Source: a virus (Duplodnaviria > Caudoviricetes). Taken from it: a stretch of 64,000 nt of DNA. The stretch covers positions 224,001 through 288,000 of IMG/VR virus record IMGVR_UViG_3300027740_000003; one strand, 5' to 3'. Below, piece after piece: positions 802-44,557 of this stretch. A program made the translations under genes and the position numbers. The stretch's first letter is position 1. Each line of letters starts with the position of its first letter. Below the pieces are notes generated by a model. It was not told where the DNA came from. It worked only from the letters and a program-made list of their open reading frames with translations, and ran no database searches.

Positions 802-803
802 TT

Positions 804-3422: not shown

Positions 3423-3431
3423 TATATCTCC

Positions 3432-18311: not shown

Positions 18312-18314
18312 AAA

Positions 18315-28737: not shown

Positions 28738-30446
28738 TATGTTCCCCTAATTGAACCCTTCCGTGCTTTTATCGGGGTTTGAGAAGTGATTATAATTAAA
28801 CTATCTGCAAAGGCTAATATATTAAAAAATATCTTTTCAAACTCTTTAAGACAATCTAAAATTGGTGGCCTATTCCCAGCTAGTTGAGTAAAAACCTCAT
28901 TATTTACCAATTCATGAAAATTTTCATCCAATCTGGTTAATGAATTATTATCCAAAAAACCAATTAGATACTTCATATCTATGGTATATAATGCAGTGTA
29001 TATTGCTAAAATATCAACAATTCCAATTCCGGCTATTTCTCCAGTTATTTTTTCTATTGTTGCTAAATAATTCAAAGCCCTTCTTGCAATCTCATCCTCT
29101 TCTTTTTTTAAATTATCTATTGGGTTTGTTAGATTTTTCGTTAAATCAACAGAAATTCCGCTTACATATGAATTATCACCAACTCTGCTATCTTGTTTTG
29201 AATTTAATCTATTATTAACTAATTCTTTTAATTGCATTAATGCGATTTTTTGTCTTGTTTCTGATGTGTCAGTTAGGCCTCCGGATGTTTTTATCTTTCC
29301 GTTTTGCGGAAATTCCGGGCCGTTTGTTCCAACAATTGGTTGTAAATTTGATTTTGCACGCAAATATTCTAACACTTGAACTGACGCTATCAATTCTAAA
29401 ACTGCTACTTTAATTCCTTTTATTAACGTATTTACTATAGCCACTTCTAAAGTTGTAAAATCTTGTATTGTTTCTATTACCTCTGTCCCTACATTTTCTA
29501 ATGAATCCTTTCCAGATATTGCTAATAAAGTATATTTTATTTCATCACTGGTTTCCGCAGATGTTTTATTATCTAATATATACTTTGCTGATTTTATAAA
29601 AGTATCATCAATCTCTTTTACTTGTAATCTGTTTATTATTATTTGTTCCAAAATTGGACGGGAAACTTTTATATCACTTCCGCCTTCATCCTTTCCTGTT
29701 ATCAATTCTTTTGGAGAACCAAGGAACGGAACAGCAACTCTCCTTGATTGCTCTGGCATAACAGCCAACTCAATAACAGGATCAACAACAAACGGTTTTA
29801 ATATATGAGGAACGTTAGTTATTATATCAGGAATTGTACTTGTAATATTTAAATCATTTAATTCTTGTTTTCTGCTATCAATTGGTGTTCTTTGCTCATC
29901 AATAAAAAAAGGATCTTTGCCAGTTTGAGCAGATAAAAAAGGTCTTGTTTTTCTAAGCAATAACGCATATACAGAAGCCACTTCATCCTGTCTGGCAAAA
30001 ATATCTCTCCTGTCATAGAACTGTGTCTCTCGTTCCGCAGTTAAAATAAAATTAGCCGAACTGCTATATATTTTATTCTTTACAGCTGTTCTGTGTGCTA
30101 TCGTTTCACTCTGTTTAGGATCGTGCCCAGGATTAAAAAATGTTCCATCCGGAGCAACAACAGGAAATCCTACATTCCTATAAAATGCATGACATCGGCT
30201 TTCATTATATCTTAATACGTCTATGCTTCCACCAGACAATGCCTGGCTAGCAAATTGTTCTTGTTCACTTCTGTCAGTTCTTTCATTCTGAGACACCGTT
30301 CCCATTCCAGAAGAGTTCTGAAAAGACCTTATATTTTGATCAATAGGTTTAACAAAAGTATTATACATCTGTTCAACAGAGCTAATGCTTTGTATATCAT
30401 CAGTCTTATCTGTCCTAACAAGATTTGGTTTTACTTTAATTGTCAT
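28737..30446 (-). CDS. Uncharacterised baseplate-region protein
   Basis: 569-aa ORF translationally coupled within the baseplate operon; no motif recognised. Confidence 0.6.
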   Translation of the reverse strand: MTIKVKPNLVRTDKTDDIQSISSVEQMYNTFVKPIDQNIRSFQNSSGMGTVSQNERTDRSEQEQFASQALSGGSIDVLRYNESRCHAFYRNVGFPVVAPDGTFFNPGHDPKQSETIAHRTAVKNKIYSSSANFILTAERETQFYDRRDIFARQDEVASVYALLLRKTRPFLSAQTGKDPFFIDEQRTPIDSRKQELNDLNITSTIPDIITNVPHILKPFVVDPVIELAVMPEQSRRVAVPFLGSPKELITGKDEGGSDIKVSRPILEQIIINRLQVKEIDDTFIKSAKYILDNKTSAETSDEIKYTLLAISGKDSLENVGTEVIETIQDFTTLEVAIVNTLIKGIKVAVLELIASVQVLEYLRAKSNLQPIVGTNGPEFPQNGKIKTSGGLTDTSETRQKIALMQLKELVNNRLNSKQDSRVGDNSYVSGISVDLTKNLTNPIDNLKKEEDEIARRALNYLATIEKITGEIAGIGIVDILAIYTALYTIDMKYLIGFLDNNSLTRLDENFHELVNNEVFTQLAGNRPPILDCLKEFEKIFFNILAFADSLIIITSQTPIKARKGSIRGT

Positions 30447-30449
30447 TTA

Positions 30450-32645
30450 TTAAACCTCAGAAACGTTATTTGCCACATCAGTTGCATCACGACGCACCTT
30501 GCCAACATCAACTCCACCAGCAATACCCTTAACACTACTAACAAATGTATATGGTAAAAATCTTTCTTGTGTTGCTGTGTCTATATCCGGATTGTCTGTG
30601 TTCAATTTCTCTAAAAACATATTGTTCTGCCAAGAAATCCTAAGCTCACCATCTCCACCTTCATCACTTGAAATGTAAGCTTCAAAAACACTTATGTCTT
30701 TATTATATGTGAATTTAGATAGTTCACCCAAAGAAACCTCTCCACTCAAAGCATCAGCTGCTGCCCCTGAACAACTATCTGGAATATTATCAGATAACAC
30801 AACTCCGGCCTTATCCTTTAAAACAACAGATACTTTAATCTTCTCAGATATAAATTGCAAATCTGGTTCGATAGAAAATGTGCTACCATAAACATCAGCA
30901 CCTGCAAATAATGCCCTACAGAAAGTGTCCTCCGCTTCTGTTTTTAATTGTTCCAAACAAGCAATCATATCTGTTTGGGCCGCCCTAACATTATCCGGAC
31001 TAATATCATCTCTTAACTTTTTAATAACATTTGCCACACACTCCTGGGCCCTAGCTATATCAGGCATTGCTCCAACTCTTGTTATAACCGGATCAAATGA
31101 TGAAGCCAATTCATCATTCAACCGGGTCGTCTCTATGGAAATATCTGGAGTACAACCTAATGTTATTAAATTATATCCAAGCAACGATGCGTGGTTTATA
31201 TTTAATGTAAATATAATATCGTTAAAATAATATCCATCATCAAAACTTGGAACGGAACCTGCCTCTCCATAATTATAATGAATTAGATTTTCTATTGTTA
31301 GTTGAACTCCATTGGAAGTAATTGGGGTAATTCCATCTGCTTCATATGCCAACCCACCAACCAAACTTAATGTCCCATATAAATTATCTACTTGTTGGAT
31401 TGCTCCTGTTTCATCTCTTACACCAATATATGGTTTAGATTCAACTATAGCATTTTTAACAATTACTGTTCTGGTTCCAGAATTATCGCCATTATCAAAT
31501 TCATCAACATTCAAATCTATAAATGTAAGATTAACTGTATATGGAGCTTTCCTTAATGATGTTGTTGCACTATAAGTTTGTCCATCTGGCCAGAATATAT
31601 CTCCATATTCAAAATCAGAAGAGTTTGATCTGCTTCCTCCATCAGCATTTCTCTGTGTTGTTGTGTCTTGATATTGTGTAATTATGTCTTTAAATGAATA
31701 AGGCTGCTCCGGATCGTCATTTACAAATTGCCACCATTCCCGGCGCAATGTGTTCCCAGTAATTTTGTCTCCAAAAATAGAAGAAAACATAGGATTATCA
31801 ACTACAGACGGATCTATAATTTGTTTGTAATATATTAGCTTTCCCTGTATCCCTTGTATTCCGTTCGGATTATTCCTTATGAAGGGAGGACAAACATCGT
31901 CTCCACAACAACCAGAATCTTCCTCGCCATCCCTGCCACTGCTACAAATTCCAACTCCACCAAGTTGAGACAAGGCTTCAATGATTGCCATTATAACAGC
32001 AATGGCAGATAACATTGCCATTAAATTCTCAATAATACATAACAAACTCGCTAGTTTAAATGCAATTGCCGCTGTTGCTTCGGCATCCTGTGAAGTGACA
32101 CACTTGCCAAGCAACTCCAAGTTCTCCAAAATATCATTTATAAGCTCAAGTATTCTTGCTATAATATATGAAATTAATGCAATTAATAAAAGAATTATTG
32201 ACAATATCATTGCAATTAAAGCCAGCCATGGAAACAGATTTAAAAATGGAGGCAAACATTCTTTTATTAATTTCCTAACTGCTTTGATTAATTTATATGG
32301 ATTAGGTATTGCACACAACACATCTATAATACACAGAATCATATTTAACAAAGCTGTTATAAAACTATACATAGATAAAAATGGACTTAACATACTAAAT
32401 AGGTTCATTATGCCATTTAGTAATGTTGCGGCAAAGTTATCTATTTGTGGGTTAAGAATGCCTCCTGGCCAATTTATTTTTAATGCATTAAGTATCTCTA
32501 ATACTTTTTCTGGAAATCCTTCTGGAAGTTTAAATCCTGGAATAGGCAACTGTATCGGAGAAAATGGTATACCAAATCCGGGTATAGGAATGCCTGGAAC
32601 AACAGGAGGATGAAGATTGTTTGTAGAAGGTGAGCAAGGCGCCAT
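30450..32645 (-). CDS. Baseplate-region protein with a long hydrophobic helical N-terminus and a C-terminal invasin/Big_1-like Ig domain
   Basis: Pro-rich start, about 160 hydrophobic helical residues, STFSIEP...IKVSVVLKDKAG...LGELS...FEAYISS..GGDGELRI. Confidence 0.55.
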   Translation of the reverse strand: MAPCSPSTNNLHPPVVPGIPIPGFGIPFSPIQLPIPGFKLPEGFPEKVLEILNALKINWPGGILNPQIDNFAATLLNGIMNLFSMLSPFLSMYSFITALLNMILCIIDVLCAIPNPYKLIKAVRKLIKECLPPFLNLFPWLALIAMILSIILLLIALISYIIARILELINDILENLELLGKCVTSQDAEATAAIAFKLASLLCIIENLMAMLSAIAVIMAIIEALSQLGGVGICSSGRDGEEDSGCCGDDVCPPFIRNNPNGIQGIQGKLIYYKQIIDPSVVDNPMFSSIFGDKITGNTLRREWWQFVNDDPEQPYSFKDIITQYQDTTTQRNADGGSRSNSSDFEYGDIFWPDGQTYSATTSLRKAPYTVNLTFIDLNVDEFDNGDNSGTRTVIVKNAIVESKPYIGVRDETGAIQQVDNLYGTLSLVGGLAYEADGITPITSNGVQLTIENLIHYNYGEAGSVPSFDDGYYFNDIIFTLNINHASLLGYNLITLGCTPDISIETTRLNDELASSFDPVITRVGAMPDIARAQECVANVIKKLRDDISPDNVRAAQTDMIACLEQLKTEAEDTFCRALFAGADVYGSTFSIEPDLQFISEKIKVSVVLKDKAGVVLSDNIPDSCSGAAADALSGEVSLGELSKFTYNKDISVFEAYISSDEGGDGELRISWQNNMFLEKLNTDNPDIDTATQERFLPYTFVSSVKGIAGGVDVGKVRRDATDVANNVSEV

Positions 32646-34774
32646 TATATAGCCTTTCCAGGAGTTCTTTCAACAAACCTGGGACAATTTTTGTAATAAA
32701 ATCCAATATTTGGAGCTTCAAAAAGTATATTAGTATGCGAATTAAAAACCATATCTTGCTCAGACATTATCTCAACCCTGCCAGGACAAGCAACTGTTGT
32801 TCCTTTTTCATCAATTCTTACCACAGTAAGTTGCCCATCGCTCTTTAATACCCTTATATCTAACACACCTGACTGAGCCAAACTAATCTCTTTTTCAAAT
32901 CTAGTATCGGTTTTCTTGTCAGATTGAGTGTCTATGTTTAACCCACCTATCTGAACAAGAACATGCCCGTCAAATTGGCCAAGATAACTTACTCCCCTTC
33001 TATCTCTTCCAATTGTAGATACCATACCACCAGCCGTATCAAGCCACATAGATTGTCTATCTACTGTATTTGCTCCAACACTACAAGAAATAAAACCATC
33101 TAAATTAATCGTTCCGCTTCTTCCACCAGCATTAGCATTTGGCCCAGCTATGTTTATTTCAGATGTTATAAACTTCTCATATTGTATTTCGTTTTGTCTT
33201 GTATTTATAGATGAATCTAATTGATATCTAATTAATTTTCCACCAGAGTCATCTGTAATTCTCTTTTTAGTAAACTGATATCCTGCTGATAAAATATCAT
33301 GATATACAAGGTTAAGTTTTGTTGTGTCTCCAGTAAACCTATCTATTGGACCAACTTGACCCTCTTGTCCCATCAATGATATTCCAGAAGAGTTATTTGT
33401 ATAATTCTCAATATAAATATCTCTACCCTCATCTTCCAAAACAAAATCATTAGGCCCTGGAGTATCTTTTTCAGAAAACGCTAATACAGAAGAGTTTACA
33501 TATCTTGTATGTAAAGGTATGTTTCCAATTTCCGATGACATTGGAACATTAAGTTTAAATTGGCCTTCTTTATCAATATCTAAAAATAGCCTAGATCTAT
33601 CACGAGCATAATTATCTACATCAGATACATCTAATGGTTCATATGCTCCAAGAATTGATCCTTCAGTTATTGAGGGTTCTGGCAAACCATCTAATCCCCT
33701 CGGAAGTTTTTGCGCCGCTCCATTCTCTTTTCTTGCATTTAATTCAAAATGATAAGCTATTGATTTTCTATGTTCATTTCTTATTTTGATAAATGCATCT
33801 GAGGTATCAGCATTATCTATAAATGACAAGTCTCCTTTTCCAATTTGTAGAATAGATCTGTTTATGTCTAGAATATTTCCAAATGTATCAACCCCTGTTC
33901 CTAAAACTTCTTCAAATAAATGATTTGGATAATATAAATTTAATCCAAATGAAACAGATCTCATTTGTTGTCTTTGAACAATAGTTTGATTTGTTCTTTT
34001 ATAATTTGGGTCTAATTTTAATAACTCAATATTGTCCAGTTCAAAATCTACTTCATTAGAAGAAGATCCAAACTCATAAATAATTTTTCTATTTTCTATT
34101 AAAGGTAAATTTCTAACCAACCCTAAAGACGTAGAAATAGAAGGTTGTATGGTTGGTTCCATTCCAACAGTCCACAAATTATCATCATATTCTCTGTCAT
34201 TTAAAGATGAATATTCGATATTTCTAAATGAATTATCGTTAATATCTCTTTTTATTTCACCTATTATTTCTCTATGAGCTGATGTAAAAGAATATTGTTT
34301 TGCAAAATCGTGAGAAATAATATCTCTTTTTATATCTAATTGCAAAGATGATAGTGAATTGCCTGCCACAATTTCATTTGAAGAATTTGGGTCATTATCA
34401 TTTGGGGCTTCTAGATATATTCTATTGGCAGCTTTTTTACTTTGAATAAGTATTCTGTTTGGCTTAAAATCAGCCATTAAATTTCCGAACACACCACTTA
34501 GACCAGAAGTATTTGTATTACTAAAAATATCATCTGGTCTCAAAAAACCAGAAATAAACCAACTTCCCTGGCCCTGTTCAACCATAACAGCAGTATTTTC
34601 TTCAGGATATCCGGCAATAACTGCGCCATCAGGAGAAGCAAAAGCCAATGGCAGATCTACAACGTATTCGTTATCTTGATTAGCTGGACCCGTGCCATCA
34701 TCAAGAACAACATGGGCCTTACCATTTCCCACATATTTTATTATTCTTCCTCTGCGTTTAATACTAACTGACAT
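32645..34774 (-). CDS. Baseplate central spike (gpV / gp5 / VgrG C-terminal-like)
   Basis: N-terminal OB-fold pattern RGRII..VGNGKAHVV...YP..NTAVMV..G.G.WFISGF; C-terminal short beta-strand repeats (TVVRIDEKGTTV..PGRVEIMSEQDMVFNS); follows the hub gene. Confidence 0.7.
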   Translation of the reverse strand: MSVSIKRRGRIIKYVGNGKAHVVLDDGTGPANQDNEYVVDLPLAFASPDGAVIAGYPEENTAVMVEQGQGSWFISGFLRPDDIFSNTNTSGLSGVFGNLMADFKPNRILIQSKKAANRIYLEAPNDNDPNSSNEIVAGNSLSSLQLDIKRDIISHDFAKQYSFTSAHREIIGEIKRDINDNSFRNIEYSSLNDREYDDNLWTVGMEPTIQPSISTSLGLVRNLPLIENRKIIYEFGSSSNEVDFELDNIELLKLDPNYKRTNQTIVQRQQMRSVSFGLNLYYPNHLFEEVLGTGVDTFGNILDINRSILQIGKGDLSFIDNADTSDAFIKIRNEHRKSIAYHFELNARKENGAAQKLPRGLDGLPEPSITEGSILGAYEPLDVSDVDNYARDRSRLFLDIDKEGQFKLNVPMSSEIGNIPLHTRYVNSSVLAFSEKDTPGPNDFVLEDEGRDIYIENYTNNSSGISLMGQEGQVGPIDRFTGDTTKLNLVYHDILSAGYQFTKKRITDDSGGKLIRYQLDSSINTRQNEIQYEKFITSEINIAGPNANAGGRSGTINLDGFISCSVGANTVDRQSMWLDTAGGMVSTIGRDRRGVSYLGQFDGHVLVQIGGLNIDTQSDKKTDTRFEKEISLAQSGVLDIRVLKSDGQLTVVRIDEKGTTVACPGRVEIMSEQDMVFNSHTNILFEAPNIGFYYKNCPRFVERTPGKAI

Positions 34775-37700
34775 TATTGAGCCTTAGGTTTAAATGATAC
34801 CCAAACATCTAGCACTGTCTTATATAACACCTTTTCTTCTACTGTAGCTACGGATTGTAAACTAGAATTCATAGTATCTGATAGAGACGCCCAAGGAGCT
34901 GGCCCATCCATGGATCCTTGAGTAATATCATTATACGTTCCTAAAGTGTCTATGGCTTCTCCAGATGATTCCCTTGCTGCTAACCATGCCCTGCCTGATG
35001 GGCCTTGTGCTTCAATTGATGTTATGTTTCGTATGCTTACAAGCCTGTCAATATCATCTATTTTTAGACCTTCTGATATTCCGCTATCAGGAACCTCCTT
35101 GCTCTTTCCTAATAATTTATTTAATCCTGAAGAAGTCATATCACTAAAACTATTTGTTCCTGGTGGGAATTTAAGGGAATCTCCCTCTGCCAACCCATCA
35201 ATTCCAAAAGTTTTTCTTGACGGATTTTTTAACCATGTTTTTATTAATTCTGCTTTATTTTTAATATTTTGATCTTCGGGGAAACCTTTTTCTGGATTTG
35301 AATAATATCTAATTTCTACAAATGCCTCATCATCTGTTGATGCCTGAGATCCTTTCAGAGCTAATATAACCTGTGTTAATGTTGCCCGGTTCTGGTCTCC
35401 ATATTTTCCAACCACAATAGAATTTATACCAGAATTATTATCTATTACAATTATTCCAAGATGCTGATCTCCATTAGAATATCCATGTCTTGCATTACGA
35501 ATCTTATTTGCTTGATTTCTTTTTGAATATAATCCTTTACCAATAATATCAAGCATTGTTGGGAAATATTCTCCAGGATTATGACCATATGTTAAAGTGA
35601 GATTAGTTGTAAAACTGCTTCCGAAATTAAAATTATGACTAACAGATTCTACATAGAAAAGAAGATCTCTATCTTCCATATAGATTACTTCTCCTGGTTG
35701 CATAAATTCATTCCCGGCAATTTGCATATTGCCCGAAATAAGTTTCCTTCTTTGCTCTGTTAATAACCAATTTGCCAATGGCGCTGCTTGAGCATCTGCA
35801 TCTGAAATATATGGAGCAGAAACATTGCTGCCTACTTTAAATCCATACATTCTCCACAAATCATAATCAACAGCAATTGCTGAAGACTGCATGTTTCCAT
35901 TGAATCCAATTTCTCCAACCGGAGGTACAAATCCTTCTCCTACCAAACCGTTAACTTCTATTGTTGTAAAGTCTGGCTTGTTCTCACTTATTGAAAATGA
36001 TATTATTTGATTGTCTTTAATTATATATCTTCCACCAGAACCAGGTCCTAAATCATCTTCATCCTCATTCTCTATTAAATGCTGAATTACTGAAGGAGCC
36101 TCTTTCTTACCTTGGAAACTGGGGAATATTGCATTCCTCCTTGTTGTAGGATCATTGTCTATCAACGATGCTTGTTCAAGATTCTTTAATGAATTTTTTA
36201 ATAATTTCAATACGCTCTGTCTTTCAGAAACATAAGAAGAAATTTCTTTTGTTAATTTAAGAATAGATGTTTGCGAATTTACGCTGCCTAACCCTTGATT
36301 TATTCTTTCTCCAACAAGATCTTTAATTGTTGGAACGGGCTGACCTGTTGTATTGTGTATTCTTGTACTAACTCTATCAAAAGCAGTTTTTATAACATCA
36401 TCTGCGGGCATAAATCTGGTGCTATCAAAAACAGCAGATACTTGAGACGATGTATCAAATAATGCTCTGTTCCTTATTTGCTCTGCTATCTTTCCAGTTG
36501 TTTCTTTTAATGCTTTAAATTCATTTTCTTCTCTTTGAGAAGCAGAATCCTGTGCTACTAAAGCCCTTATTGTAGAGGGCTTTACTCCAAATTGCCCACG
36601 TTCATTTGTTATAAATTTAAAAGAGAAAGATGCGTCTCCAAAATTTGCACCACTTAAAAACTTCTGAGCTTCAAAATCATCAGTTAGTCCCATAACTAAT
36701 GTTCTTAATCTAATCTGATCTTCAACAATACACAGTCTGTCAATTAGCCCATCCGCCTGATCTATAAATAATGTCTCTAATGTTTTTGGATATATTTTTC
36801 TTCCATCAGAAATCATTTTATAAAATACAGAACTTGGAACTTTATTGTATCCTGGCGGTTTAATTTCAACATGTCCTTGTGAATTTGCAAATACTTCTAA
36901 ACCAAGAATCTTAGCAACGCTACTTATTTGTGTTGCAATATCTGTATAATCAGATTTTAGCAAACTCATCTTGTCAGCCAAAGCTCTTTCAAAAGCCTGT
37001 ATGTCATAATCTTTATCATACTGATCGTCAATAATAAGAAGATTTTGATCGTCATTTGCACTTACTTTCCACAGCCTTCTCTGTGTCAAAAGCTTCATTT
37101 TTCTTCGCATCAAGGCTCTTGTCTGTTCTTTCTCTTCTTCTCCAACCTGATTCCCAAGCCCATCTAAATCTGGAGAATATGATATATCATCTCCAAATAC
37201 TTGCATAGAACCGTCTTCTATTGTTTTATATACTTGGTTTTGTAAACTGTTTATTTTTGTATCTAGTTCAAATAAGGAAGTAGATGCCGCCGCTACTAAA
37301 CCTCTATCATCTTGATTTGTTAAAGAAGTTTGCGGCATATTGTCTTTATTCATTTCTCCATTAAGAGATAATCCATAAATATTTGGGTTGCCAGCAAATA
37401 CCGCATCTGCCATAGATAATGTGTCATATAATTTTGCCCTCTCTGACAACAGCCGGTCAAGCTCAGCACTGTTTTGCTGATAACTAAACTGTCCTGATAT
37501 TGAGAACCTTAATGCAGCATCATCCATTACAAGACGTTTGAACGGAACAAAGTTTCCCCATAACGTATTATCTATCTGCAAATCAGAAATAAAACTACGG
37601 AAAAATGACCTGGCCATTTCTGTATTTGATAATCCGTCTTTGTTTTCTAAAAATGATAGATTTGAATTCTTAACAGAAGAAGTAATAAAAGTATTATAAT

Positions 37701-39777
37701 TATATGGAACTCCAGAAATTAATAATGACAAAACATTCATTACATCTTGTCCAGCAAATGGATTTTTAGTCAATAATGGAGATGCAGACTTTCTAAATGC
37801 ATTATTGGGATGTCTAGAACTATTGTATGTAAATGTTCCTATTCCAGACTTCCATCTATAAACAAATCCATCAGGATCAAAAAATACTCGCTGTGTTTGA
37901 TTAACCCCATTGGCTGCTTTAATATTTGTATCCCCTAATAAATACAAAAATTCAGTCATCGGAGAACCGATAAATCTAGAGCCGTTTTTAAATTTAGCAA
38001 TTCCACTAAATAATAACCTCTCATTTTCAGACAACAATTTAGGATGATCATTTACTAAAAATCCCGTAGCTCCATCAAATTCTAAATCAAATGGTGTTAA
38101 TGGATCAAATATAGACCTCTCAGGAACATCTACCGCAGGCTTTATATTTATCTGGCCCATTTTGAAATATTCTGTATTGTCAGCACAACTAACACTTAAT
38201 TCATATTTACCCGAATTATAACTTTCATTAACACTTATTACTAATCCACCAAATACATGCGTCCCAGCCGCCTGCCTAGTAAAATCATTCCTTATCGCTA
38301 CCCATAACCATGTAGGGAAATCTGCTCCAACAATTGCTTCTTTTTCTACATCTGTATAAGAATACTTGCTGCCTCCACCAAAGAACCCACCAATATTATT
38401 AAATGATTGTTCTAGATTTTCTATAGAACTATTTAACATTGATAATATGTTGTTTCCAGGATCTACAATAGACCTAGAATCAAATCCAATTATCTTATTA
38501 TCAACCATTGTTTTTGATGTCATAAAAATATGAACGCTATCCATTATCTGAATCATATTTTTATTAACATAATGTAATCTCATTTTTGATCTTAAATAAT
38601 CTATTTCTCCCTGGTTGTCTTGATTTATTACATCGTCTATTTCTTCTTCTTTTTGTCTTTGTAAATTGATAATCAAATATATGTTTTTAGTTATTCTGTC
38701 AAATAAAATTTCTTCTGATCTAATAAGACCGTTTTCTCCTTCGGTTGCAGAAGGATCCAAATTAACTTTTGCTCCAATTCCCATAACACCAGGATCAAAA
38801 CTAAATATTAATTCTCTTCCTTCCTCATCAATAAAAGCTCTTACCTTTGCACTGATAATTGCATTGTCATTTACCCTCCAAACAATTGGAGCAGCTCCAC
38901 GCAGAAGCCTTGCTTTGTTCAATTGTGCCCGCATATCATTATTCTGCTTGGATAATTCACTTTCAGAAAATTGGAATAATGAAGAAGATTGTTTTCTATT
39001 GTAAATATCTGCAATAGCTCTATCTATATCTAACTCACTAATGCTCATTAAATGATAAGGATCTTCTATTGTTATATTACATTTGCCAGCACCAAATTGA
39101 ACAGAAGATGTTGTGTTGCAAGAAGCTGCCATTGTTAGAGAAAATGTTCCCGTTCCTTCCCCTAAATCATACGGCATATCAGGACTAACAAACCATGTTG
39201 TTAAATTCCCAGGATCTGAAAATGCCTGCATTTTTCTTACTGTCTCTATTGTTCTCTTTGTCTTTTGATCTACTATGTTTACACCAAATGCCTCTAATGT
39301 CTCTATGCCTGAAATAAGAAGTGGTGTGAAAAAATCATCAGCAATACCACGGTTCTGAATTACTTTCTCTATCTTTGCTAATCTTTCATATGTGGCAACA
39401 ACTTGACATTTGTTCTGAAATAATCTTTTACTTGCTTTAATAAAGTTTCTTTCAGCTTGTTCCATCATGTCAATTCTATAATTATCAACAAGAGATGAAA
39501 ACATTCTCTTTTTAATAATTATCGTCATGTCAGGCTCTTGCAATAATGCTTCAAAAGACCTGGGACGAATATTACTAATATATCCACTTTCTACATAAGA
39601 CCGTTGTGCAGAATGATCTATCTTGTTTGCAAATTCTCCCAATAAACCAACGTCAGCAACCTGATCTGGATTGTTAGGATCAGGAGTATACAAACTGCGC
39701 GGAGTATTCTCCCCAGCATTTGCATATGTGTTCATTTGTTTAATGAACTGATTTCCAACGTCCTTTAAAAAACTCAT
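34774..39777 (-). CDS. Baseplate hub (T4 gp27 / late control D-like), expanded
   Basis: GNMQIAGNEFMQPGEVIY...FYVESVSHNFNFGSSFTTNLTLTYG, preceded by IISFSISE and YDLWRMYGFK; GKCNITIEDP near the N-terminus. Confidence 0.75.
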   Translation of the reverse strand: MSFLKDVGNQFIKQMNTYANAGENTPRSLYTPDPNNPDQVADVGLLGEFANKIDHSAQRSYVESGYISNIRPRSFEALLQEPDMTIIIKKRMFSSLVDNYRIDMMEQAERNFIKASKRLFQNKCQVVATYERLAKIEKVIQNRGIADDFFTPLLISGIETLEAFGVNIVDQKTKRTIETVRKMQAFSDPGNLTTWFVSPDMPYDLGEGTGTFSLTMAASCNTTSSVQFGAGKCNITIEDPYHLMSISELDIDRAIADIYNRKQSSSLFQFSESELSKQNNDMRAQLNKARLLRGAAPIVWRVNDNAIISAKVRAFIDEEGRELIFSFDPGVMGIGAKVNLDPSATEGENGLIRSEEILFDRITKNIYLIINLQRQKEEEIDDVINQDNQGEIDYLRSKMRLHYVNKNMIQIMDSVHIFMTSKTMVDNKIIGFDSRSIVDPGNNILSMLNSSIENLEQSFNNIGGFFGGGSKYSYTDVEKEAIVGADFPTWLWVAIRNDFTRQAAGTHVFGGLVISVNESYNSGKYELSVSCADNTEYFKMGQINIKPAVDVPERSIFDPLTPFDLEFDGATGFLVNDHPKLLSENERLLFSGIAKFKNGSRFIGSPMTEFLYLLGDTNIKAANGVNQTQRVFFDPDGFVYRWKSGIGTFTYNSSRHPNNAFRKSASPLLTKNPFAGQDVMNVLSLLISGVPYNYNTFITSSVKNSNLSFLENKDGLSNTEMARSFFRSFISDLQIDNTLWGNFVPFKRLVMDDAALRFSISGQFSYQQNSAELDRLLSERAKLYDTLSMADAVFAGNPNIYGLSLNGEMNKDNMPQTSLTNQDDRGLVAAASTSLFELDTKINSLQNQVYKTIEDGSMQVFGDDISYSPDLDGLGNQVGEEEKEQTRALMRRKMKLLTQRRLWKVSANDDQNLLIIDDQYDKDYDIQAFERALADKMSLLKSDYTDIATQISSVAKILGLEVFANSQGHVEIKPPGYNKVPSSVFYKMISDGRKIYPKTLETLFIDQADGLIDRLCIVEDQIRLRTLVMGLTDDFEAQKFLSGANFGDASFSFKFITNERGQFGVKPSTIRALVAQDSASQREENEFKALKETTGKIAEQIRNRALFDTSSQVSAVFDSTRFMPADDVIKTAFDRVSTRIHNTTGQPVPTIKDLVGERINQGLGSVNSQTSILKLTKEISSYVSERQSVLKLLKNSLKNLEQASLIDNDPTTRRNAIFPSFQGKKEAPSVIQHLIENEDEDDLGPGSGGRYIIKDNQIISFSISENKPDFTTIEVNGLVGEGFVPPVGEIGFNGNMQSSAIAVDYDLWRMYGFKVGSNVSAPYISDADAQAAPLANWLLTEQRRKLISGNMQIAGNEFMQPGEVIYMEDRDLLFYVESVSHNFNFGSSFTTNLTLTYGHNPGEYFPTMLDIIGKGLYSKRNQANKIRNARHGYSNGDQHLGIIVIDNNSGINSIVVGKYGDQNRATLTQVILALKGSQASTDDEAFVEIRYYSNPEKGFPEDQNIKNKAELIKTWLKNPSRKTFGIDGLAEGDSLKFPPGTNSFSDMTSSGLNKLLGKSKEVPDSGISEGLKIDDIDRLVSIRNITSIEAQGPSGRAWLAARESSGEAIDTLGTYNDITQGSMDGPAPWASLSDTMNSSLQSVATVEEKVLYKTVLDVWVSFKPKAQ

Positions 39778-39784
39778 TTCTTCC

Positions 39785-40708
39785 TTAAATCATAAATGCA
39801 TCTATAGTGTCAAACGATGTTAGCATATCTAATCTAGATTGATTAGAGCCTTGTAGAGGCGGAGAACTTGCAGGCAACCCGTCTGTTAAAACGCCATAAC
39901 TTAATGGAGGCCCACCTTCTCTCCAATTGCTCTGACCATATGACGGATGATGGTGCCATGGCATAAAATTGTTCCTAAATCCTCTACGCTGTGTTGCACT
40001 AAATGTAAAATTATAATCAAATAACCCAAGCCTGTCTACAGAATCTTTATAATCAAAGTCTTCAAAAAATCCCCTAAATACCTCTCCCATCCAATACATC
40101 TCTACCGTAAATGCTAAAGATGCAAGTGTAGGCTTGTTCCTAGCATTTATAGCATTAGATGTTAAAGAACTGTCTATTTGATCTGCAACAAATGGAACCG
40201 CTCCGAGAAATGGAATGCTTCCAATTCCAAATGGCCCGCTTCCACCAAATATGGTGTTATCAAATGATTCTTGGTTTTTCTTGTCTCTCTCAGCTTGCAA
40301 CAAAAGAGCATACGGATCAAACATAACTTGTTCATTTCTATATACATCTAATAAAACATTTATTCCTTCAATGCCAGATGTTCCAGTGGTTCCATTAACC
40401 GAAATTCCTATCAAATCCTCGCCCCAATATTGTAAAGAATATCCTCCTTTTACTCGGGTTTTTGTAGTTAGTTTTTTATACTTGTAAGACACTTGCTGTG
40501 GGTTAATATACATCTCAACAATAGGCTGCTCTGGCACAAGCCATCTCATAACTTGTCTGGTTGTCCTTCCGTCTATTCTAGGAGGAACTTGTGCTTGCCG
40601 AGACATTGCTCCACTCTGAGCAGGTGGCAACTTCCCAGTTAGATTGCTGGCCATTGAAGTGGCTGTATTTGCAATAGAATCAAAAAATTCAAAAGGTAGT
40701 TTCGCCAT
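39785..40708 (-). CDS. Tail tube initiator / hub-associated protein (gpU, T4 gp48/54-like)
   Basis: EMYINPQQVSYKYKK...GGYSLQYWGEDL..ISVNGTTG, GEVFRGFFEDF; between tape measure and hub. Confidence 0.6.
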   Translation of the reverse strand: MAKLPFEFFDSIANTATSMASNLTGKLPPAQSGAMSRQAQVPPRIDGRTTRQVMRWLVPEQPIVEMYINPQQVSYKYKKLTTKTRVKGGYSLQYWGEDLIGISVNGTTGTSGIEGINVLLDVYRNEQVMFDPYALLLQAERDKKNQESFDNTIFGGSGPFGIGSIPFLGAVPFVADQIDSSLTSNAINARNKPTLASLAFTVEMYWMGEVFRGFFEDFDYKDSVDRLGLFDYNFTFSATQRRGFRNNFMPWHHHPSYGQSNWREGGPPLSYGVLTDGLPASSPPLQGSNQSRLDMLTSFDTIDAFMI

Positions 40709-42912
40709 TATCTAACCCCGCTTGATGCCCTAGAGGCCTCTATTTGTGCTAATTCCATGCTCAATTGCTGAGTGTCTATAACCTTTCCTTCAGTATTCTT
40801 TACTATTACAGTTAAAGGATCAATTGTAAAATTTATTCCCGTTGTTCCAGATGCCCTCGGCGCCATTCCTGGCAATGTAGGTCCTATACCTACTTCTTTT
40901 GGTGCCGACGGAAGAACAGGGCCGGCTGGAATTTCTGGAACAATATTCTCCATTGCCTCTGTATCTGGAGCATTCTTTGCCGCAGTCATTCCAGAAACAT
41001 ATTGGTTTATTTTTCCTATTGTGTCAGATACTGTTGCCATTACTGCTGATGCCGGAGTTTCTGTTGCTAAAAACCCTTTCCCAGCCGTGCCAGCCAAATC
41101 CATCGCTTTACCCCTTTCTCCAGCATATAATTCTCTCAGCTGGGATCCTTCAAGATTCATTCCTCCAGCCAAACTCCTAATATACAAAGCATTTCCTATT
41201 TGCTGCTCTTGCAATAATTGTCCAATAGTATTCTGAATATTTATCAATGCATTAGCCTGCTTCTCCTGCATCTTTTCATCTGTCTTAAGAACACTAGACA
41301 TTGCATCACCAGTTTCTCTTCCAATTGCTTCTGTATCAATCCCGCCAGGACCAGCTGTTTTAAATGCTTCTAATAATCTATAAGCCTGATCTGCGTTCTT
41401 TACAACAGCTCCAAATGGTCCTTGTGTTAAAAATTGAACTTGCCTTGTTAACTCAGCAGCCGCTGTATCTGATTTTGAGCCCTCTTCGAGGGTAGTCACT
41501 CCACCAAATTGTCCTTTTAATGACTGCTCCATCTTTTTATAAACTTCATCAAGCTTTCCTTGACGCATTAACATGTCTACTTCAAAAGCCCCTCTTAACC
41601 CTCCTGCCCCTCCAGTCTGTTGAGACATAAACGCTTTCTGAGCTAAACTCATATTACCAATAGATTGTGTAATGCTCTCTATTATTGCCTTAGTAGGTTC
41701 TATACCTAGCCCTGTACTTTTTAAAGCACCAGCTAGTGCTCCAACCAGATTAATAGATGAAGACATGTTGTCTCCAAGCATAGCAAATTGCTTTACAACC
41801 CCACCAATTATATTATCTACATCTTTAAATCCTATTCCCAATCTCTGAGACAAATCATATGTTTTTGTCATAAGATCTAAAGCGTGTTCGTTGGTGGTTC
41901 CAAATTGCCTAAATTGTAAATTCAAATCATTAACAACGTCTTTAAAATCTCCAGTGGTTCCTCTGGCTACTCGAATTGCTCCTTCTAACATTGACATTTG
42001 ACCACCAGCAGCTCCAGAAAGCTGAACTGTTGAATTAAATGCTCCAGGCAACTTCATTAGTTCTTGGCCAAATTTATTAACCTCATCTATTGCTAAGTTG
42101 GTAGACTGAGCAACGGCAGTGTTCTGGTCTACTATTCTTATTAACTGGTTTTCTAAATTGCCGGTAAAATTCATTCTATTAATGTTTTGGAACCCAGCAA
42201 ATTGGCCAAACAATCCCATTATTGAACTTTCAAATTTTCTTACACCGGCTGTTTCTTTTACAAGTTCTTCAACTCCGCTACCCATTGCTCCTGCTACTTT
42301 GGTAAATGGAGCCAATACTTGGTCTATAATTCCTTTCCCACCAGTGAATTTTTTAAATACACCTTCTAGTTTTTCTATTCCTTCTTTTGTGGATTCAAAT
42401 AGTTTAGTAGAGCTTTCTATTCCAATAGCAGATGTTTCTCTAGATACTTGCCCATAATTTCCTACAGCGTCTCCAAGACCTACAACAACACTGGCAAGAA
42501 GCCCCCCAACTTGGGCGGTTTTCTCCATTTTATCTCTAAAATCAATATTCTCTTTTCCAGCTTTATTTATAGCATCTGACATTCCTAAGACGTCCATGGC
42601 TCCAGACTTCATTCTTTGTGCAAATTTTCCAAGAACAGAGTCTGAATTTGAAGCGCCAGATGTGTATGCTTTTAATATGCTATCCTGATCTTCTACTGAT
42701 TTTGAAAATATATCAAAGTTTCCCGCTGTTTTTTTGGCAGTTTCTCCTGCTTTTTCAGTTGCTTCTGTTGCCTTTCCGGCCGACGTGGTTAATTGGTCTA
42801 ATTTTTCAGGAGCTCCAGTAAATAAATCTGTTATTCTTGTGCTTACTGATGCTAAATTTGCCTCAATACTCTTTAATAACGCATTTATCTTTGCTAATAG
42901 TTCCGGATCCAT
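40708..42912 (-). CDS. Tape measure protein
   Basis: Ala/Gly/Gln-rich, predicted helical, 734 aa; directly downstream of the G/GT chaperone pair. Confidence 0.75.
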   Translation of the reverse strand: MDPELLAKINALLKSIEANLASVSTRITDLFTGAPEKLDQLTTSAGKATEATEKAGETAKKTAGNFDIFSKSVEDQDSILKAYTSGASNSDSVLGKFAQRMKSGAMDVLGMSDAINKAGKENIDFRDKMEKTAQVGGLLASVVVGLGDAVGNYGQVSRETSAIGIESSTKLFESTKEGIEKLEGVFKKFTGGKGIIDQVLAPFTKVAGAMGSGVEELVKETAGVRKFESSIMGLFGQFAGFQNINRMNFTGNLENQLIRIVDQNTAVAQSTNLAIDEVNKFGQELMKLPGAFNSTVQLSGAAGGQMSMLEGAIRVARGTTGDFKDVVNDLNLQFRQFGTTNEHALDLMTKTYDLSQRLGIGFKDVDNIIGGVVKQFAMLGDNMSSSINLVGALAGALKSTGLGIEPTKAIIESITQSIGNMSLAQKAFMSQQTGGAGGLRGAFEVDMLMRQGKLDEVYKKMEQSLKGQFGGVTTLEEGSKSDTAAAELTRQVQFLTQGPFGAVVKNADQAYRLLEAFKTAGPGGIDTEAIGRETGDAMSSVLKTDEKMQEKQANALINIQNTIGQLLQEQQIGNALYIRSLAGGMNLEGSQLRELYAGERGKAMDLAGTAGKGFLATETPASAVMATVSDTIGKINQYVSGMTAAKNAPDTEAMENIVPEIPAGPVLPSAPKEVGIGPTLPGMAPRASGTTGINFTIDPLTVIVKNTEGKVIDTQQLSMELAQIEASRASSGVR

Positions 42913-43263
42913 TTATTCCTCAATAACTCTTCTGGCCCTTCTGTGTAATTTTTGATCTGCTATGTCGTTGAATTTACTAACCATTTCATATGACTTCTCA
43001 TATTCCTCGTCAGATGTAGCATAATCTGGGTTATCTTGCTTAGATGCCCTGTTAGCCATTTCCCAATTAAAAAATGACCCCATATATAATGCATAACTTT
43101 TATATATTTTGTGCATATCTTCTTGATCCTGGAGCCAGCTCTGATACATCCACATCCATGTGAATTCATCCATATCCTCAAAAAATGAGTCGCCTGGCAA
43201 GAATTTGTAGGTTTTACATAAAAACCATATAAACCTATGATCCGGCTCCTTTATTATTTTTTT
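42913..43263 (-). CDS. Tail assembly chaperone GT extension (reached by -1 frameshift)
   Basis: The frame of the 95-aa TTG ORF is open back to the A7 run at 43257-43263 and reads KIIKEPDHRFIWFLCKTYKFLPGDSFFEDMDEFTWMWMY. Confidence 0.75.
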   Translation of the reverse strand, partial: KKIIKEPDHRFIWFLCKTYKFLPGDSFFEDMDEFTWMWMYQSWLQDQEDMHKIYKSYALYMGSFFNWEMANRASKQDNPDYATSDEEYEKSYEMVSKFNDIADQKLHRRARRVIEE

Positions 43264-43862
43264 ATGTTTTCAACTATCTCCTTTGGCTCTCCTCCCAGAT
43301 CTTCCACCATGGCCTTCCTGTGCTCTACAATCATATTAGAATACTCTTCCCATAGTCTTCCAATAACTGACTCCTCCATCTCATCAATCACATCCTCGGC
43401 CGTCTCAGACCCCAAGAAATGCATGAACGGAACTCCATCTATTTCAAAGATGGATCTTGCTAATGTGCACTTTCTTATTGTAAGAGCTTCTCCTACATTT
43501 GTTTGAGATAATGCCGCAGCTTCAATAACTTCTCTTGTTTCTTTATTCTTTAATGATCTTAATGAGAATGTAATTCCTTCTATATCTACATCCTTTACTA
43601 ATCTTCCAATTCCTGTTAATATCTCTAATCTATTAACTGCATTCTTTGGAGCTCTATTTGTTCTTTTTTCTTCCCTTGCTCGTTTTATTTCTTCTTCTAA
43701 TTCTGCATTTGTTTTAAATGTTTCTTCTGGTTCTGAAGAAGAAAAACTTAAAATAGGTTGTGGCTCTGGCTCTTCTACTCGTAATACTTCTTTATTCTTA
43801 GCTTCGCCTAAATCAATACGACCTAGGGAAGATGATATAGCTCTTCTCCTATTAATCTCCAT
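43254..43862 (-). CDS. Tail assembly chaperone (gpG-like)
   Basis: Acidic small protein between tail tube and tape measure; ends in a slippery sequence. Confidence 0.75.
   Translation of the reverse strand: MEINRRRAISSSLGRIDLGEAKNKEVLRVEEPEPQPILSFSSSEPEETFKTNAELEEEIKRAREEKRTNRAPKNAVNRLEILTGIGRLVKDVDIEGITFSLRSLKNKETREVIEAAALSQTNVGEALTIRKCTLARSIFEIDGVPFMHFLGSETAEDVIDEMEESVIGRLWEEYSNMIVEHRKAMVEDLGGEPKEIVENIKK
43257..43263 (-). other. Programmed -1 ribosomal frameshift site A_AAA_AAA
   Basis: Minus strand AAC ATA AAA AAA TAA; X XXY YYZ heptamer immediately before the stop; the -1 frame is open into the downstream ORF. Confidence 0.75.
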
Positions 43863-43909
43863 ACACTTTCTCCTATGTTAATAAACCTACTCGGCTTATA
43901 TATCACTGG

Positions 43910-44557
43910 TTATAGAGCACTGCCATCAAATGCATTAATAAGGCCAGCTGCATCCAAAGCACCACGGTAAATGCCAACATCCGCTTGCTGCTCAAATGGA
44001 TTAACCACAAGTCTTGTAGGATCTGAAATGGCCGACTGCCCACCAGAACGGAAGCTCTTTATCGCTTCTGCTTCAAGATTCATATTATCCACAATAACAA
44101 AGTTGTCAGAATCATATGTATAACTAATCTGTGTAATCCAACAGTTCTGGATAACGGTCACTACCGTAGCCCCAGCTACCGCCATTCCTCCAGATCCTAT
44201 CGCCCCACCTTGAATTAAATCATATATCTCAATATCAAATGGAACCCGCTGAGATCCCACATGAACATATGATCGGTAGAAACCTTCCGCAATTCTCTTG
44301 CCATCAAAACGGGTTCTCTGACAGGTCACGTTATATTCTGCTGACTTATTAGGAGCGGAATCTATAACGCCATCTGTCCCAACTTCAGAAATCCTAGTGA
44401 CCGATCTTTGTTCTGTCACCTGAAGTTGTTTTACCGCCGCAATTGGGTTTCCAGCAATAGCAAGAATTATGTTTGTTGATAAATGCGTGCCAGTCCGGTT
44501 CCTACCTTGAAGCGTAATCTGAGTGGCATTTGCTGATTGAACATTTCTTAATGGCAT
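43910..44557 (-). CDS. Tail tube protein (T4 gp19-like)
   Basis: Directly downstream of the sheath gene; AVKQLQVTEQRSVTRISEVG, PFDIEI, VIQNCWITQISY. Confidence 0.82.
   Translation of the reverse strand: MPLRNVQSANATQITLQGRNRTGTHLSTNIILAIAGNPIAAVKQLQVTEQRSVTRISEVGTDGVIDSAPNKSAEYNVTCQRTRFDGKRIAEGFYRSYVHVGSQRVPFDIEIYDLIQGGAIGSGGMAVAGATVVTVIQNCWITQISYTYDSDNFVIVDNMNLEAEAIKSFRSGGQSAISDPTRLVVNPFEQQADVGIYRGALDAAGLINAFDGSAL

What the first reader, a model, noticed from the sequence alone, without database searches (positions are those of the whole stretch)
32645..44557. DGY is absent from the inner, injected tail components
Seen: spike (709 aa), hub (1667 aa, about 10 DG dipeptides), tube initiator, tape measure, chaperones and tail tube total nearly 4,000 residues with zero DGY, while sheath, wedges, fibres, neck and terminator candidates all carry it. 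Established: tube, tape measure, hub and spike are enclosed by the sheath or baseplate and are driven into the cell. Inference: the motif tracks surface exposure, as expected if a bulky group is attached that would shield the particle but hinder penetration.
Basis: partly seen in the sequence, partly recalled or inferred. Interest (0 to 1): 0.75.

Follow-up and report, generated by a model that had tools for sequence, protein, structure and literature searches.

The report
DGY tag avoids inner tail proteins
In a 435-kb uncultured phage and its many relatives, the tripeptide Asp-Gly-Tyr is about 15 times too frequent in outer tail proteins and about 10 times too rare in the tube, tape measure, core and hub proteins, which suggests that something reads it as a tag, although no chemical modification has been shown.

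Summary
The seven ORFs at 32645-44557 (3,929 aa) contain no DGY. The window as a whole has 33 against 4.2 expected.

In this genome alone the zero proves little. Composition predicts only 0.4-0.6 DGY for these seven proteins.

Relatives settle the question. In 64 dereplicated IMG/VR loci, sheath, the 266-aa, 731-aa and 1728-aa proteins carry 218 DGY against 14.7 expected. This makes DGY the top-ranked of 3,419 tripeptides. Tube, 95-aa chaperone, tape measure, 307-aa core protein and hub carry 2 against 21.4 by composition, or 16.3 by a Markov estimate. A wider set of 120 hub homologues has 2 DGY in 201,079 aa.

The pattern is therefore real avoidance, not just a lack of enrichment. Within the sheath, DGY lies only in the inserted segment, never in the conserved end segments.

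- The spike carries one conserved DGY in 51 of its 120 closest homologues.
- Parts that are not injected (gp25-like initiator, 569-aa protein, portal) and the exposed major capsid protein also lack DGY.
- No attached group has been shown.

So the discriminator is peripheral versus core location, not injection.

This scan has already noted the DGY pattern on other genomes of the clade. I found no paper describing it.

The parts
43910..44557 (-). Tail tube protein, 215 aa, 0 DGY
   Evidence: phrog_985, E 3e-6. Atlas nearest clusters score 0.98 with 220 shared features; 28% of their members carry Phi812_tail_tube. The gene lies directly after the sheath gene. 57 homologues: 0 DGY against 1.6 expected.
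43254..43862 (-). Tail assembly chaperone, G-like part, 202 aa, 0 DGY
   Evidence: Lies between the tube and tape measure genes and ends in a conserved slippery run. 6 of 55 relatives have one DGY at a single C-terminal column.
43257..43263 (-). A7 slippery heptamer for a -1 frameshift into the 95-aa frame
   Evidence: The frame of the 95-aa ORF is open from 43269 and is -1 relative to the 202-aa ORF. A7 is present in 34 of 53 relatives, and some XXXYYYZ run in 43 of 53.
42913..43200 (-). Chaperone T-like extension, 95 aa, 0 DGY
   Evidence: 49 homologues have 0 DGY.
40708..42912 (-). Tape measure candidate, 734 aa, Gly-rich, 8 Tyr, 0 DG, 0 DGY
   Evidence: Pfam TMP_3, E 0.0027, below the curated cutoff. 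Position after the chaperones. 56 homologues: 0 DGY against 2.8 expected.
39785..40708 (-). Baseplate-core protein, 307 aa (candidate tube initiator or Mu gp43-like), 0 DGY
   Evidence: Position between tape measure and hub. A profile of 59 homologues hits a phi812 baseplate component, 9euf_M, at E 0.015 only. No profile similarity to the tube family. 64 homologues: 0 DGY against 3.5 expected.
34774..39777 (-). Baseplate hub, 1667 aa, 9 DG, 0 DGY
   Evidence: The model of residues 850-1450 matches Mu gp44, the Milano and 7-7-1 baseplate hubs, the MuSo2 43-kDa tail protein, the pyocin R2 hub, VgrG and T4 gp27 (Foldseek E 2e-5 to 2e-2). phrog_1015. Atlas leads to GpP-like and Gp44-like families. 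Homologues: 2 DGY against 13.2 expected in 65, and 2 against 26.5 in 120, 201,079 aa.
32645..34774 (-). Central spike candidate, 709 aa, 0 DGY here
   Evidence: The gene follows the hub. Atlas leads to Gp5_OB and Phage_base_V. No Pfam, PHROG or PDB sequence hit. In relatives one conserved DGY lies at about 65% of the length: 8 of 46 and 51 of 120.
44601..47075 (-). Tail sheath, 824 aa, 3 DGY (outer comparison)
   Evidence: AF2 model, pLDDT 82. VIA Z 33.6 to the phage 812 sheath and 29.7 to the pyocin R2 sheath. 50 homologues: 114 DGY against 6.5 expected.
46482..46562 (-). Sheath DGY cluster (residues 172, 179, 196) in loops of a beta-rich inserted segment
   Evidence: These columns hold DGY in 24, 27 and 33 of 44 homologues. 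The alternatives are NNL, AGT, DAN and the like.
47154..47954 (-). 266-aa protein upstream of the sheath gene (identity unresolved), 1 DGY
   Evidence: DGY at residue 122 is kept in 33 of 38 homologues. No PDB or Pfam hit.
30450..32645 (-). 731-aa baseplate protein, 1 DGY
   Evidence: 41 homologues: 58 DGY against 3.2 expected.
28737..30446 (-). 569-aa baseplate protein, 0 DGY
   Evidence: 0 DGY in G001, G003 and G004.
28306..28737 (-). gp25-like sheath initiator, 143 aa, 0 DGY
   Evidence: Pfam Sheath_initiator, E 6.6e-8. 0 DGY in five relatives.
25009..28281 (-). Baseplate_J wedge protein, 1090 aa, 1 DGY
   Evidence: Pfam PF04865, E 4e-20. 0-1 DGY in five relatives.
15300..25007 (-). Peripheral baseplate or fibre proteins: 2230 aa (7 DGY) and 1003 aa (8 DGY)
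   Evidence: Laminin_G_3 and Dockerin_1 domains. Relatives carry 3-16 and 2-10 DGY.
56490..58151 (-). 553-aa neck or collar candidate, 5 DGY
   Evidence: Weak PHROG hits to virion structural proteins. 4-7 DGY in five relatives.

Best explanation
DGY is a functional tag that this phage clade places on loops of peripheral, lineage-specific domains: the sheath insertion, neck, outer baseplate and fibres. The same clade keeps DGY out of the tightly packed conserved core of the tail: tube, tape measure, 307-aa core protein and hub. In the genomes examined, the gp25-like initiator and the 569-aa protein are also free of it.

Shown: the enrichment, the depletion, their specificity for the ordered tripeptide, and the non-interchangeability of Tyr and Phe after Asp-Gly.

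Inferred: DGY is read in the cytoplasm, before or during assembly, by a factor made together with the late proteins. The most plausible reader is one of the soluble glycosyltransferases encoded next to the baseplate genes, acting on the Tyr hydroxyl. An adduct on a core protein would disturb the tube lumen, the tube-sheath interface or the hub channel, so DGY that arises there by mutation is removed by selection. Early, non-virion proteins stay at the neutral level.

The rule is peripheral versus core, not injected versus not injected.
For: Enrichment and specificity. In the virion module of this genome DGY is 82 against 8.0 expected. NGY is 1.07x, EGY 0.14x and DGF 1.5x. The rest of the genome has 20 against 13. 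The pattern GAYGGNTAY occurs 82 times in frame 0 and 1-3 times in the other frames or antisense, with varied synonymous sites. Inner and outer genes share one operon and strand, so mutation or codon bias cannot explain the split.

Clade replication in 64 dereplicated loci. Outer families hold 218 against 14.7 expected, rank 1 of 3,419 tripeptides. The five inner families hold 2 against 21.4, rank 20 from the bottom of 4,809. The Markov expectation is 16.3, P = 1.2e-5. Outer density exceeds inner in 47 of 50 loci and is never lower. In five near-complete relatives, tube, tape measure, core protein, hub, spike and gp25-like protein all have 0. An independent set of 120 hub homologues has 2 in 201,079 aa against 26.5, or 16.2 by Markov.

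Column-level tests, less affected by shared ancestry. Among the inner families, 2 of 27 DG[F/Y] columns hold Tyr, against 110 of 281 control xG[F/Y] columns (P = 6e-4). Among the outer families 31 of 41 do (inner against outer P = 1.6e-8). Phe and Tyr exchange in 1 of 23 DG columns against 47 of 115 controls (P = 5e-4).

Within the sheath, all DGY sites of 44 homologues fall at positions 144-467. None falls in 1-143 or 468-824. The fold matches minimal sheaths over about 320 residues. The three sites of this sheath lie in loops. At DGY columns the alternatives are NGT, DGV, AGT or DAN, not NGY or DGF.

GT2 and GT4 glycosyltransferases and sugar-nucleotide epimerases lie directly beside the fibre genes. 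A homologue of the GT4 gene was found in 8 of the 9 related records examined, and in the four where its neighbours were read it lies just after the fibre gene.
Against: No modification has been observed. The link to the glycosyltransferases is positional only.

The spike homologues carry a conserved DGY in 51 of 120 proteins. This is hard to reconcile with an adduct that hinders penetration, unless that loop is exposed.

The exposed major capsid protein has none in six genomes.

In the inner set NGY and EGY are also low (0.35-0.40x). Part of the depletion is therefore generic to x-G-Y, and the DGY-specific part is about 4-fold (P about 0.014).

Homologous sequences are not independent, so the Poisson P values are optimistic.

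The residue-level boundaries of the sheath core were not available and solvent exposure was not computed.

A distant subclade keeps GT4-like genes but shows only 2.6x DGY and none in its sheath.
Confidence: 0.5

Rival explanations
1. DGY is an unmodified surface motif. It would be a small Asp/Tyr sugar- or ligand-binding patch, or a stabilising turn, useful only on solvent-facing accessory domains. Inner proteins lack it because it gives no benefit there, and their low count reflects structural constraints on x-G-Y.
For: The sites lie in loops of accessory beta-rich domains. Peripheral proteins carry lectin-like and dockerin domains. x-G-Y is generally low in the inner proteins: NGY 0.35x, EGY 0.40x. 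The spike tolerates a conserved DGY.
Against: This predicts a neutral level in the inner proteins. The observed level is 0.09x by composition, 2 against 16 by the Markov estimate, and 2 of 27 columns against 39% in controls. Non-virion proteins lie at 1.3-1.5x. A passive turn motif should tolerate NGY or DGF, which are not enriched and do not exchange with DGY.
Confidence: 0.25
2. DGY is a docking site for another virion protein, such as a decoration, cement or fibre-anchoring protein that binds outer surfaces. Inner proteins avoid it to prevent mis-docking during assembly.
For: The same topology and avoidance would be expected. DGY often occurs in clusters of 2-3. A dockerin domain sits in the 1003-aa protein.
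Against: The sequence contexts around DGY are very diverse. Three residues are few for a protein interface. No candidate reader protein was identified.
Confidence: 0.12
3. The split is a by-product of fold class and history. The inner proteins are helical or ancient conserved folds that started without DGY, and the sample is too related to show otherwise.
For: The tape measure and chaperones are poor in Tyr and DG. The window alone expects only 0.4-0.6 DGY. Homologues share ancestry.
Against: The inner families hold 665 DG and 326 GY dipeptides, with DGF at 2.25x. Hub homologues are only 37-61% identical across 120 sequences, yet have 2 DGY in 201,079 aa. The column-level tests remain significant.
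Confidence: 0.08

Closest known systems
Virion glycosylation of mycobacteriophages by phage-encoded glycosyltransferases (Freeman et al. 2023, PMC10527164, as summarised in PMC12619734)
   Same: Glycosyltransferase genes lie next to the structural genes. The proposed targets are exposed virion proteins, and the proposed role is shielding.
   Different: In mycobacteriophages the glycans were shown by experiment. They sit at the C-termini of the capsid and tail tube subunits of siphoviruses. Here nothing has been shown, the candidate acceptor is an internal Asp-Gly-Tyr loop motif, the capsid protein lacks it, and the sheath-enclosed tube is kept free of it.
Short bacterial glycosylation sequons (Bacteroidota D-S/T-A/I/L/V/M/T; Campylobacter D/E-X-N-X-S/T); from my own knowledge
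   Same: A motif of three to five residues beginning with an acidic residue, scattered over many unrelated surface proteins and evolving by gain and loss.
   Different: Those systems act on Ser/Thr or Asn of exported proteins at the membrane. Here the candidate acceptor would be Tyr, and the substrates assemble in the cytoplasm.
Tyrosine O-glycosylation of S-layer proteins in Paenibacillus alvei and Thermoanaerobacter (PMC2943079)
   Same: A precedent for glycans O-linked to tyrosine on a bacterial surface array.
   Different: That process is co-secretional and uses a membrane oligosaccharyltransferase. Two to four sites are known per protein. No DGY sequon is reported in the text I could read.
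Baseplate core of contractile tails, for example phage 812 (PMC13433997), Mu gp43/gp44/gp45 and T4 gp27-gp5
   Same: The gene order is sheath, tube, chaperones, tape measure, core protein, hub, spike, then gp25-like and J-like wedge proteins. The hub and sheath folds match. [quoted passage not shown]
   Different: The hub is very large (1667 aa). Two extra proteins (731 and 569 aa) lie between the spike and the gp25-like gene. Identity to any solved protein is below 20%.

Membership tests
Contractile tail sheath (gp18-like) | Conserved sheath core fold | tested here: met
   VIA Z 33.6 (rmsd 2.6, 321 aligned) to the phage 812 sheath; Z 29.7 to pyocin R2. phrog_2839, E 5.5e-17.
gp27 / Mu gp44-like baseplate hub | Hub fold shared with Mu gp44, T4 gp27 and VgrG | tested here: met
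   Foldseek E 2e-5 to 2e-2, probability 0.99-1.00, 150-175 aligned columns, to 8fqc_C1, 9ki1_G, 1wru, 3cdd, 6u5h_A and 1k28_D. Only residues 850-1450 were modelled, at pLDDT 68.
Tail assembly chaperone pair (lambda G/GT type) | Two overlapping frames between the tube and tape measure genes, joined by a -1 slippery heptamer | tested here: met
   A7 at 43257-43263, with the -1 frame open from 43269. Conserved in 34-43 of 53 relatives. Frameshifting itself was not measured.
Tail tube (Phi812_tail_tube-like) | Sequence or fold membership | tested here: inconclusive
   phrog_985, E 3e-6. Atlas score 0.98, with the family present on 28% of cluster members. Pfam and PDB profile searches found nothing.
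gp5 / gpV / VgrG central spike | N-terminal OB fold and C-terminal beta-helix | tested here: inconclusive
   Atlas leads only. The PDB profile hit has E 0.38. Pfam and PHROG found nothing. Not folded.
Tube initiator (T4 gp48/gp54, phage 812 gp113) | Tube-like beta-barrel between tube and hub | tested here: inconclusive
   Only a hit at E 0.015 to a phi812 baseplate component whose role I could not identify. No profile similarity to the tube family.
Sequon-directed protein glycosylation | A short, ordered acceptor motif over-represented on surface proteins | tested here: met
   DGY at 10-15x; permutations and near-variants are not enriched.
Sequon-directed protein glycosylation | The acceptor residue cannot be replaced by a non-acceptor look-alike | tested here: met
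   Phe/Tyr exchange in 1 of 23 DG columns against 47 of 115 controls.
Sequon-directed protein glycosylation | A transferase encoded by the same genome | tested here: met
   GT2 and GT4 domains and epimerases at window 804-15233. Their substrate is unknown.
Sequon-directed protein glycosylation | A glycan covalently attached at the motif | not testable with these tools
   Needs mass spectrometry or a structure.
Bacteroidota general O-glycosylation | Motif D-(S/T)-(A/I/L/V/M/T) on exported proteins | tested here: not met
   The motif here is D-G-Y and the substrates are cytoplasmic virion proteins.

The most novel reading that the evidence does not exclude
DGY is the sequon of an undescribed cytoplasmic, tyrosine-directed protein glycosylation system of a large clade of huge phages. 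The system follows a topological rule written into the genome: peripheral virion domains acquire the sequon, and selection purges it from the tail core because the enzyme acts before assembly.
Probability: 0.35. Interest if true: 0.85.

Novelty: new variant of a known kind. Interest (0 to 1): 0.68.

Why it matters
The depletion in the core tail proteins works as an internal negative control. It turns the odd frequency of one tripeptide into evidence that a co-expressed factor reads DGY and that being read has a cost.

It would also be the first case in which the topology of a virion can be read from where a sequon is and is not found.

The finding gives concrete experimental targets: the sheath insertion loops at residues 172, 179 and 196, and the adjacent GT2 and GT4 genes. 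It also offers a simple sequence rule for predicting which proteins of uncultured huge phages are peripheral.

Tried and rejected
Sequence searches that found nothing useful:
- Profiles of the tube, spike, hub and 266-aa families against PDB sequences found nothing significant.
- Pfam and PHROG scans of the spike, tube and 266-aa family members found nothing.
- hhalign of the 307-aa family against the tube family found nothing, so 'tube initiator' stays a positional label.
- A single-protein scan of IMG/VR with the Baseplate_J protein found no relatives. I reached them through the records behind earlier loci instead.

DNA-level motif: rejected, because 82 of 87 pattern matches are in frame 0 of the sense strand.

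Repeat-domain artefact: rejected, because the sequence contexts are diverse.

Cultured model: Bacillus phage G, the nearest cultured giant phage by sheath similarity, shows no DGY enrichment around its tail genes, so it cannot serve.

Literature: searches for a DGY motif in phages and for Asp-Gly-Tyr with glycosylation found nothing relevant. The paper on tyrosine O-glycosylation in P. alvei (PMC4397588) is not held.

Not obtained: residue-level solvent exposure (no coordinates are returned) and the exact boundaries of the sheath core.
Full report
**What is there.** The window is part of a single 435,004-bp virus record, positions 224001-288000. The record reads well in the standard code, with 90% coding. 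Almost all window genes lie on the minus strand. In transcription order they are:
- neck and unknown proteins;
- a 1728-aa protein and a 266-aa protein;
- sheath and tube;
- two small ORFs;
- a Gly-rich 734-aa protein and a 307-aa protein;
- a 1667-aa protein and a 709-aa protein;
- 731-aa and 569-aa proteins;
- a gp25-like sheath initiator;
- a Baseplate_J protein;
- a 2230-aa protein with a lectin-like domain;
- a 1003-aa protein with a dockerin domain;
- a block of sugar-nucleotide epimerases and GT2/GT4 glycosyltransferases.

**The observation.** The seven ORFs at 32645-44557 total 3,929 aa and contain no DGY. The 48 ORFs of the window hold 33 DGY against 4.2 expected, the highest excess of any tripeptide. 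Genome-wide, 82 of 102 DGY lie in the 180-300 kb virion module, which is 10.2x expectation. There NGY is 1.07x, EGY 0.14x and DGF 1.5x. The remaining 92 kaa of proteins are at 1.5x.

The signal is at protein level. GAYGGNTAY occurs 82 times in frame 0 of the sense strand and 1-3 times in each other frame or antisense, and the synonymous positions vary.

The zero in the 15 ORFs at 1-12834 is explained. The ones I scanned are mostly sugar-nucleotide and glycosyltransferase enzymes, not virion parts.

**Is the zero more than chance?** In this genome alone, barely. From their own composition the seven proteins should contain 0.57 DGY, or 0.39 from DG x GY / G. The tape measure and chaperones have almost no Tyr or DG. 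Zero is significant only against the density of the virion module, where about 8.2 would be expected (P about 3e-4). At protein level the Fisher test gives P = 0.018. One genome can therefore show 'not enriched' but cannot show 'avoided'.

**Relatives.** The 307-aa protein and then a profile of it recovered 243 related stretches in IMG/VR. I held 85 loci, which became 64 after dereplication at 90% identity. Gene order is conserved. Observed against expected DGY per family:

| Family | Observed | Expected |
|---|---|---|
| sheath | 114 | 6.5 |
| 266-aa | 32 | 2.2 |
| 731-aa | 58 | 3.2 |
| 1728-aa | 14 | 2.8 |
| tube | 0 | 1.6 |
| 95-aa chaperone | 0 | 0.4 |
| tape measure | 0 | 2.8 |
| 307-aa core protein | 0 | 3.5 |
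| hub | 2 | 13.2 |
| spike | 8 | 6.6 |
| 202-aa chaperone | 6 | 0.8 |

- Among the outer families DGY ranks first of 3,419 tripeptides (14.9x).
- Among the five strictly inner families it ranks 20th from the bottom of 4,809 (0.09x).
- A first-order Markov expectation for the inner five is 16.3 against 2 observed.
- In 50 loci holding both classes, outer density exceeds inner in 47 and is never lower.
- In five near-complete relatives (321-459 kb), tube, tape measure, core protein, hub, spike and gp25-like protein have 0 DGY in every genome where a homologue was assigned; the 569-aa protein has 0 in the three where one was found. The neck protein has 4-7, the sheath 2-4, the 2230-aa protein 3-16 and the 1003-aa protein 2-10.
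- A separate search of the 5.8-billion-protein collection gave 120 hub homologues (37-61% identity). They hold 2 DGY in 201,079 aa against 26.5 by composition, or 16.2 by Markov.

**Controls for shared ancestry and generic bias.** In the inner set NGY and EGY are also low (0.35-0.40x). Part of the deficit is therefore generic, and the DGY-specific part is about four-fold.

I also counted alignment columns instead of sequences:
- In the inner families 27 columns hold DG followed by Phe or Tyr. Tyr occurs in 2 of them.
- Of 281 control columns with another residue before the Gly, Tyr occurs in 110 (P = 6e-4).
- In the outer families Tyr occurs in 31 of 41 such columns (inner against outer P = 1.6e-8).
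- Phe and Tyr exchange within 47 of 115 control columns but only 1 of 23 DG columns (P = 5e-4).

So after Asp-Gly the hydroxyl matters. At conserved DGY columns the other sequences carry NGT, DGV, AGT, DAN and the like, not NGY or DGF. The tripeptide is gained and lost as a unit on pre-existing turns.

**Topology within one protein.** The sheath model (pLDDT 82) matches the phage 812, pyocin R2, Mu and T4 sheaths at Z 25-34 over about 320 residues, spanning positions 29-824. All DGY sites of 44 sheath homologues map to window positions 144-467. None maps to 1-143 or 468-824, the segment that BLAST and PHROG align to other sheaths. The three sites of this sheath lie in loops between strands of a beta-rich segment.

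Published sheath structures, which I recall rather than re-read here, place such insertions on the outer surface. I could not obtain residue-level alignments or exposure values, so this step is an inference.

**Are the 'inner' labels right?**
- Sheath and hub are supported by fold.
- The tube is supported by PHROG and by language-model neighbours.
- The two small ORFs show the hallmark of tail assembly chaperones. An A7 slippery run at 43257-43263 leads into the -1 frame of the second ORF. It is kept in 34 of 53 relatives.
- The tape measure rests on a sub-threshold Pfam hit plus position.
- The spike rests on position and language-model leads to Gp5_OB and Phage_base_V.
- The 'tube initiator' has only an E 0.015 hit to a phage 812 baseplate component.

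That tube, tube initiator and hub are driven through the wall is described for phage 812 (PMC13433997).

1. The spike is not DGY-free in the clade. 51 of its 120 closest homologues carry DGY, 50 of them at one site at about 65% of the length. Seven of the 46 IMG/VR spike homologues carry DGY in that same region and an eighth elsewhere. In the family alignment the site falls in a gap-rich, variable stretch.
2. Parts that are not injected also lack DGY: the gp25-like protein, the 569-aa protein and the portal.
3. The exposed major capsid protein lacks DGY in six genomes. The roughly 230-aa protein encoded just upstream of it carries two in four of them.

The best summary is therefore 'peripheral accessory domains against conserved, tightly packed core'. 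It is not 'exposed against injected'.

**Mechanism.** Avoidance below the neutral level implies a cost of carrying DGY in core proteins. It therefore implies a reader that meets these proteins before they are buried.

A transferase co-expressed late fits this. GT2/GT4 genes and sugar-nucleotide enzymes abut the fibre genes. A homologue of the GT4 gene was found in 8 of the 9 related records examined, and in the four where its neighbours were read it lies just after the fibre gene. Tyrosine-linked glycans exist on S-layers (PMC2943079), and phage virion glycosylation is known in mycobacteriophages (PMC12619734, citing Freeman et al. 2023).

None of this shows a modification. A distant subclade keeps GT4-like genes with only 2.6x DGY. 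Binding-site and docking-site readings remain open.

**Prior notes.** This scan has recorded the DGY pattern in this genome and in several other genomes of the clade, including remarks that inner tail proteins lack it. I treated these as leads and re-derived everything above. New here, compared with the summaries of those notes that I was shown, are:
- the demonstration of depletion below baseline;
- the column-level and Phe/Tyr tests;
- the spike exception;
- the point that injection is not the discriminator.

I found no paper describing the motif.

Noticed in passing
window 43257-43263 (-), with ORFs 43254-43862 and 42913-43200: An A7 slippery heptamer lies at the end of the 202-aa ORF, and the -1 frame of the 95-aa ORF is open across it. 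This is the classic G/GT-type programmed frameshift of tail assembly chaperones. A7 is kept in 34 of 53 relatives.
   Followed up: yes
spike homologues P0001-P0120; equivalent to about residue 471 of window 32645-34774: About 40% of the closest spike homologues carry one conserved DGY at about 65% of their length. This window's spike does not. In the family alignment the site falls in a gap-rich, variable stretch.
   Followed up: partly
genome 298570-299583 (major capsid protein) and 299689-300357; L106-L110: The major capsid protein has no DGY in six genomes. The roughly 230-aa protein encoded just upstream has two DGY in four of them. Whether that protein is a decoration or a scaffold protein is unknown.
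   Followed up: partly
virion module, genome 180-300 kb: At DGY sites Asp is encoded by GAC in 43% of cases, against 21% for Asp overall in the same genes. Gly and Tyr codons follow normal usage.
   Followed up: no
window 58120-59349 (-): An HNH-type endonuclease (phrog_4645, E 2e-37) sits among the neck genes. It is missing at this place in several relatives, so it is probably a homing insertion.
   Followed up: no
window 15300-18311 (-), residues 596-664: The 1003-aa peripheral protein contains a type I dockerin domain (Pfam E 9e-10). Two of its DGY lie in the calcium-loop region.
   Followed up: no
window 54629-56440 (-) and 48037-48630 (+): Two glycine-rich ORFs of unknown role: a 603-aa protein with 22% Gly, and a 197-aa ORF with 16% Gly that is the only sizeable plus-strand ORF in the tail region.
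   Followed up: no
G006 (record behind L005), tail module of 74.5 kb: A distant subclade has two tube paralogues, a 1334-aa sheath without DGY and only 2.6x DGY overall, although it has GT4-like genes downstream of the fibre genes.
   Followed up: partly
L114 (Bacillus phage G, 88860-129363): The cultured giant phage G shares the sheath C-terminal domain at 29% identity but shows no DGY enrichment around its tail genes.
   Followed up: yes
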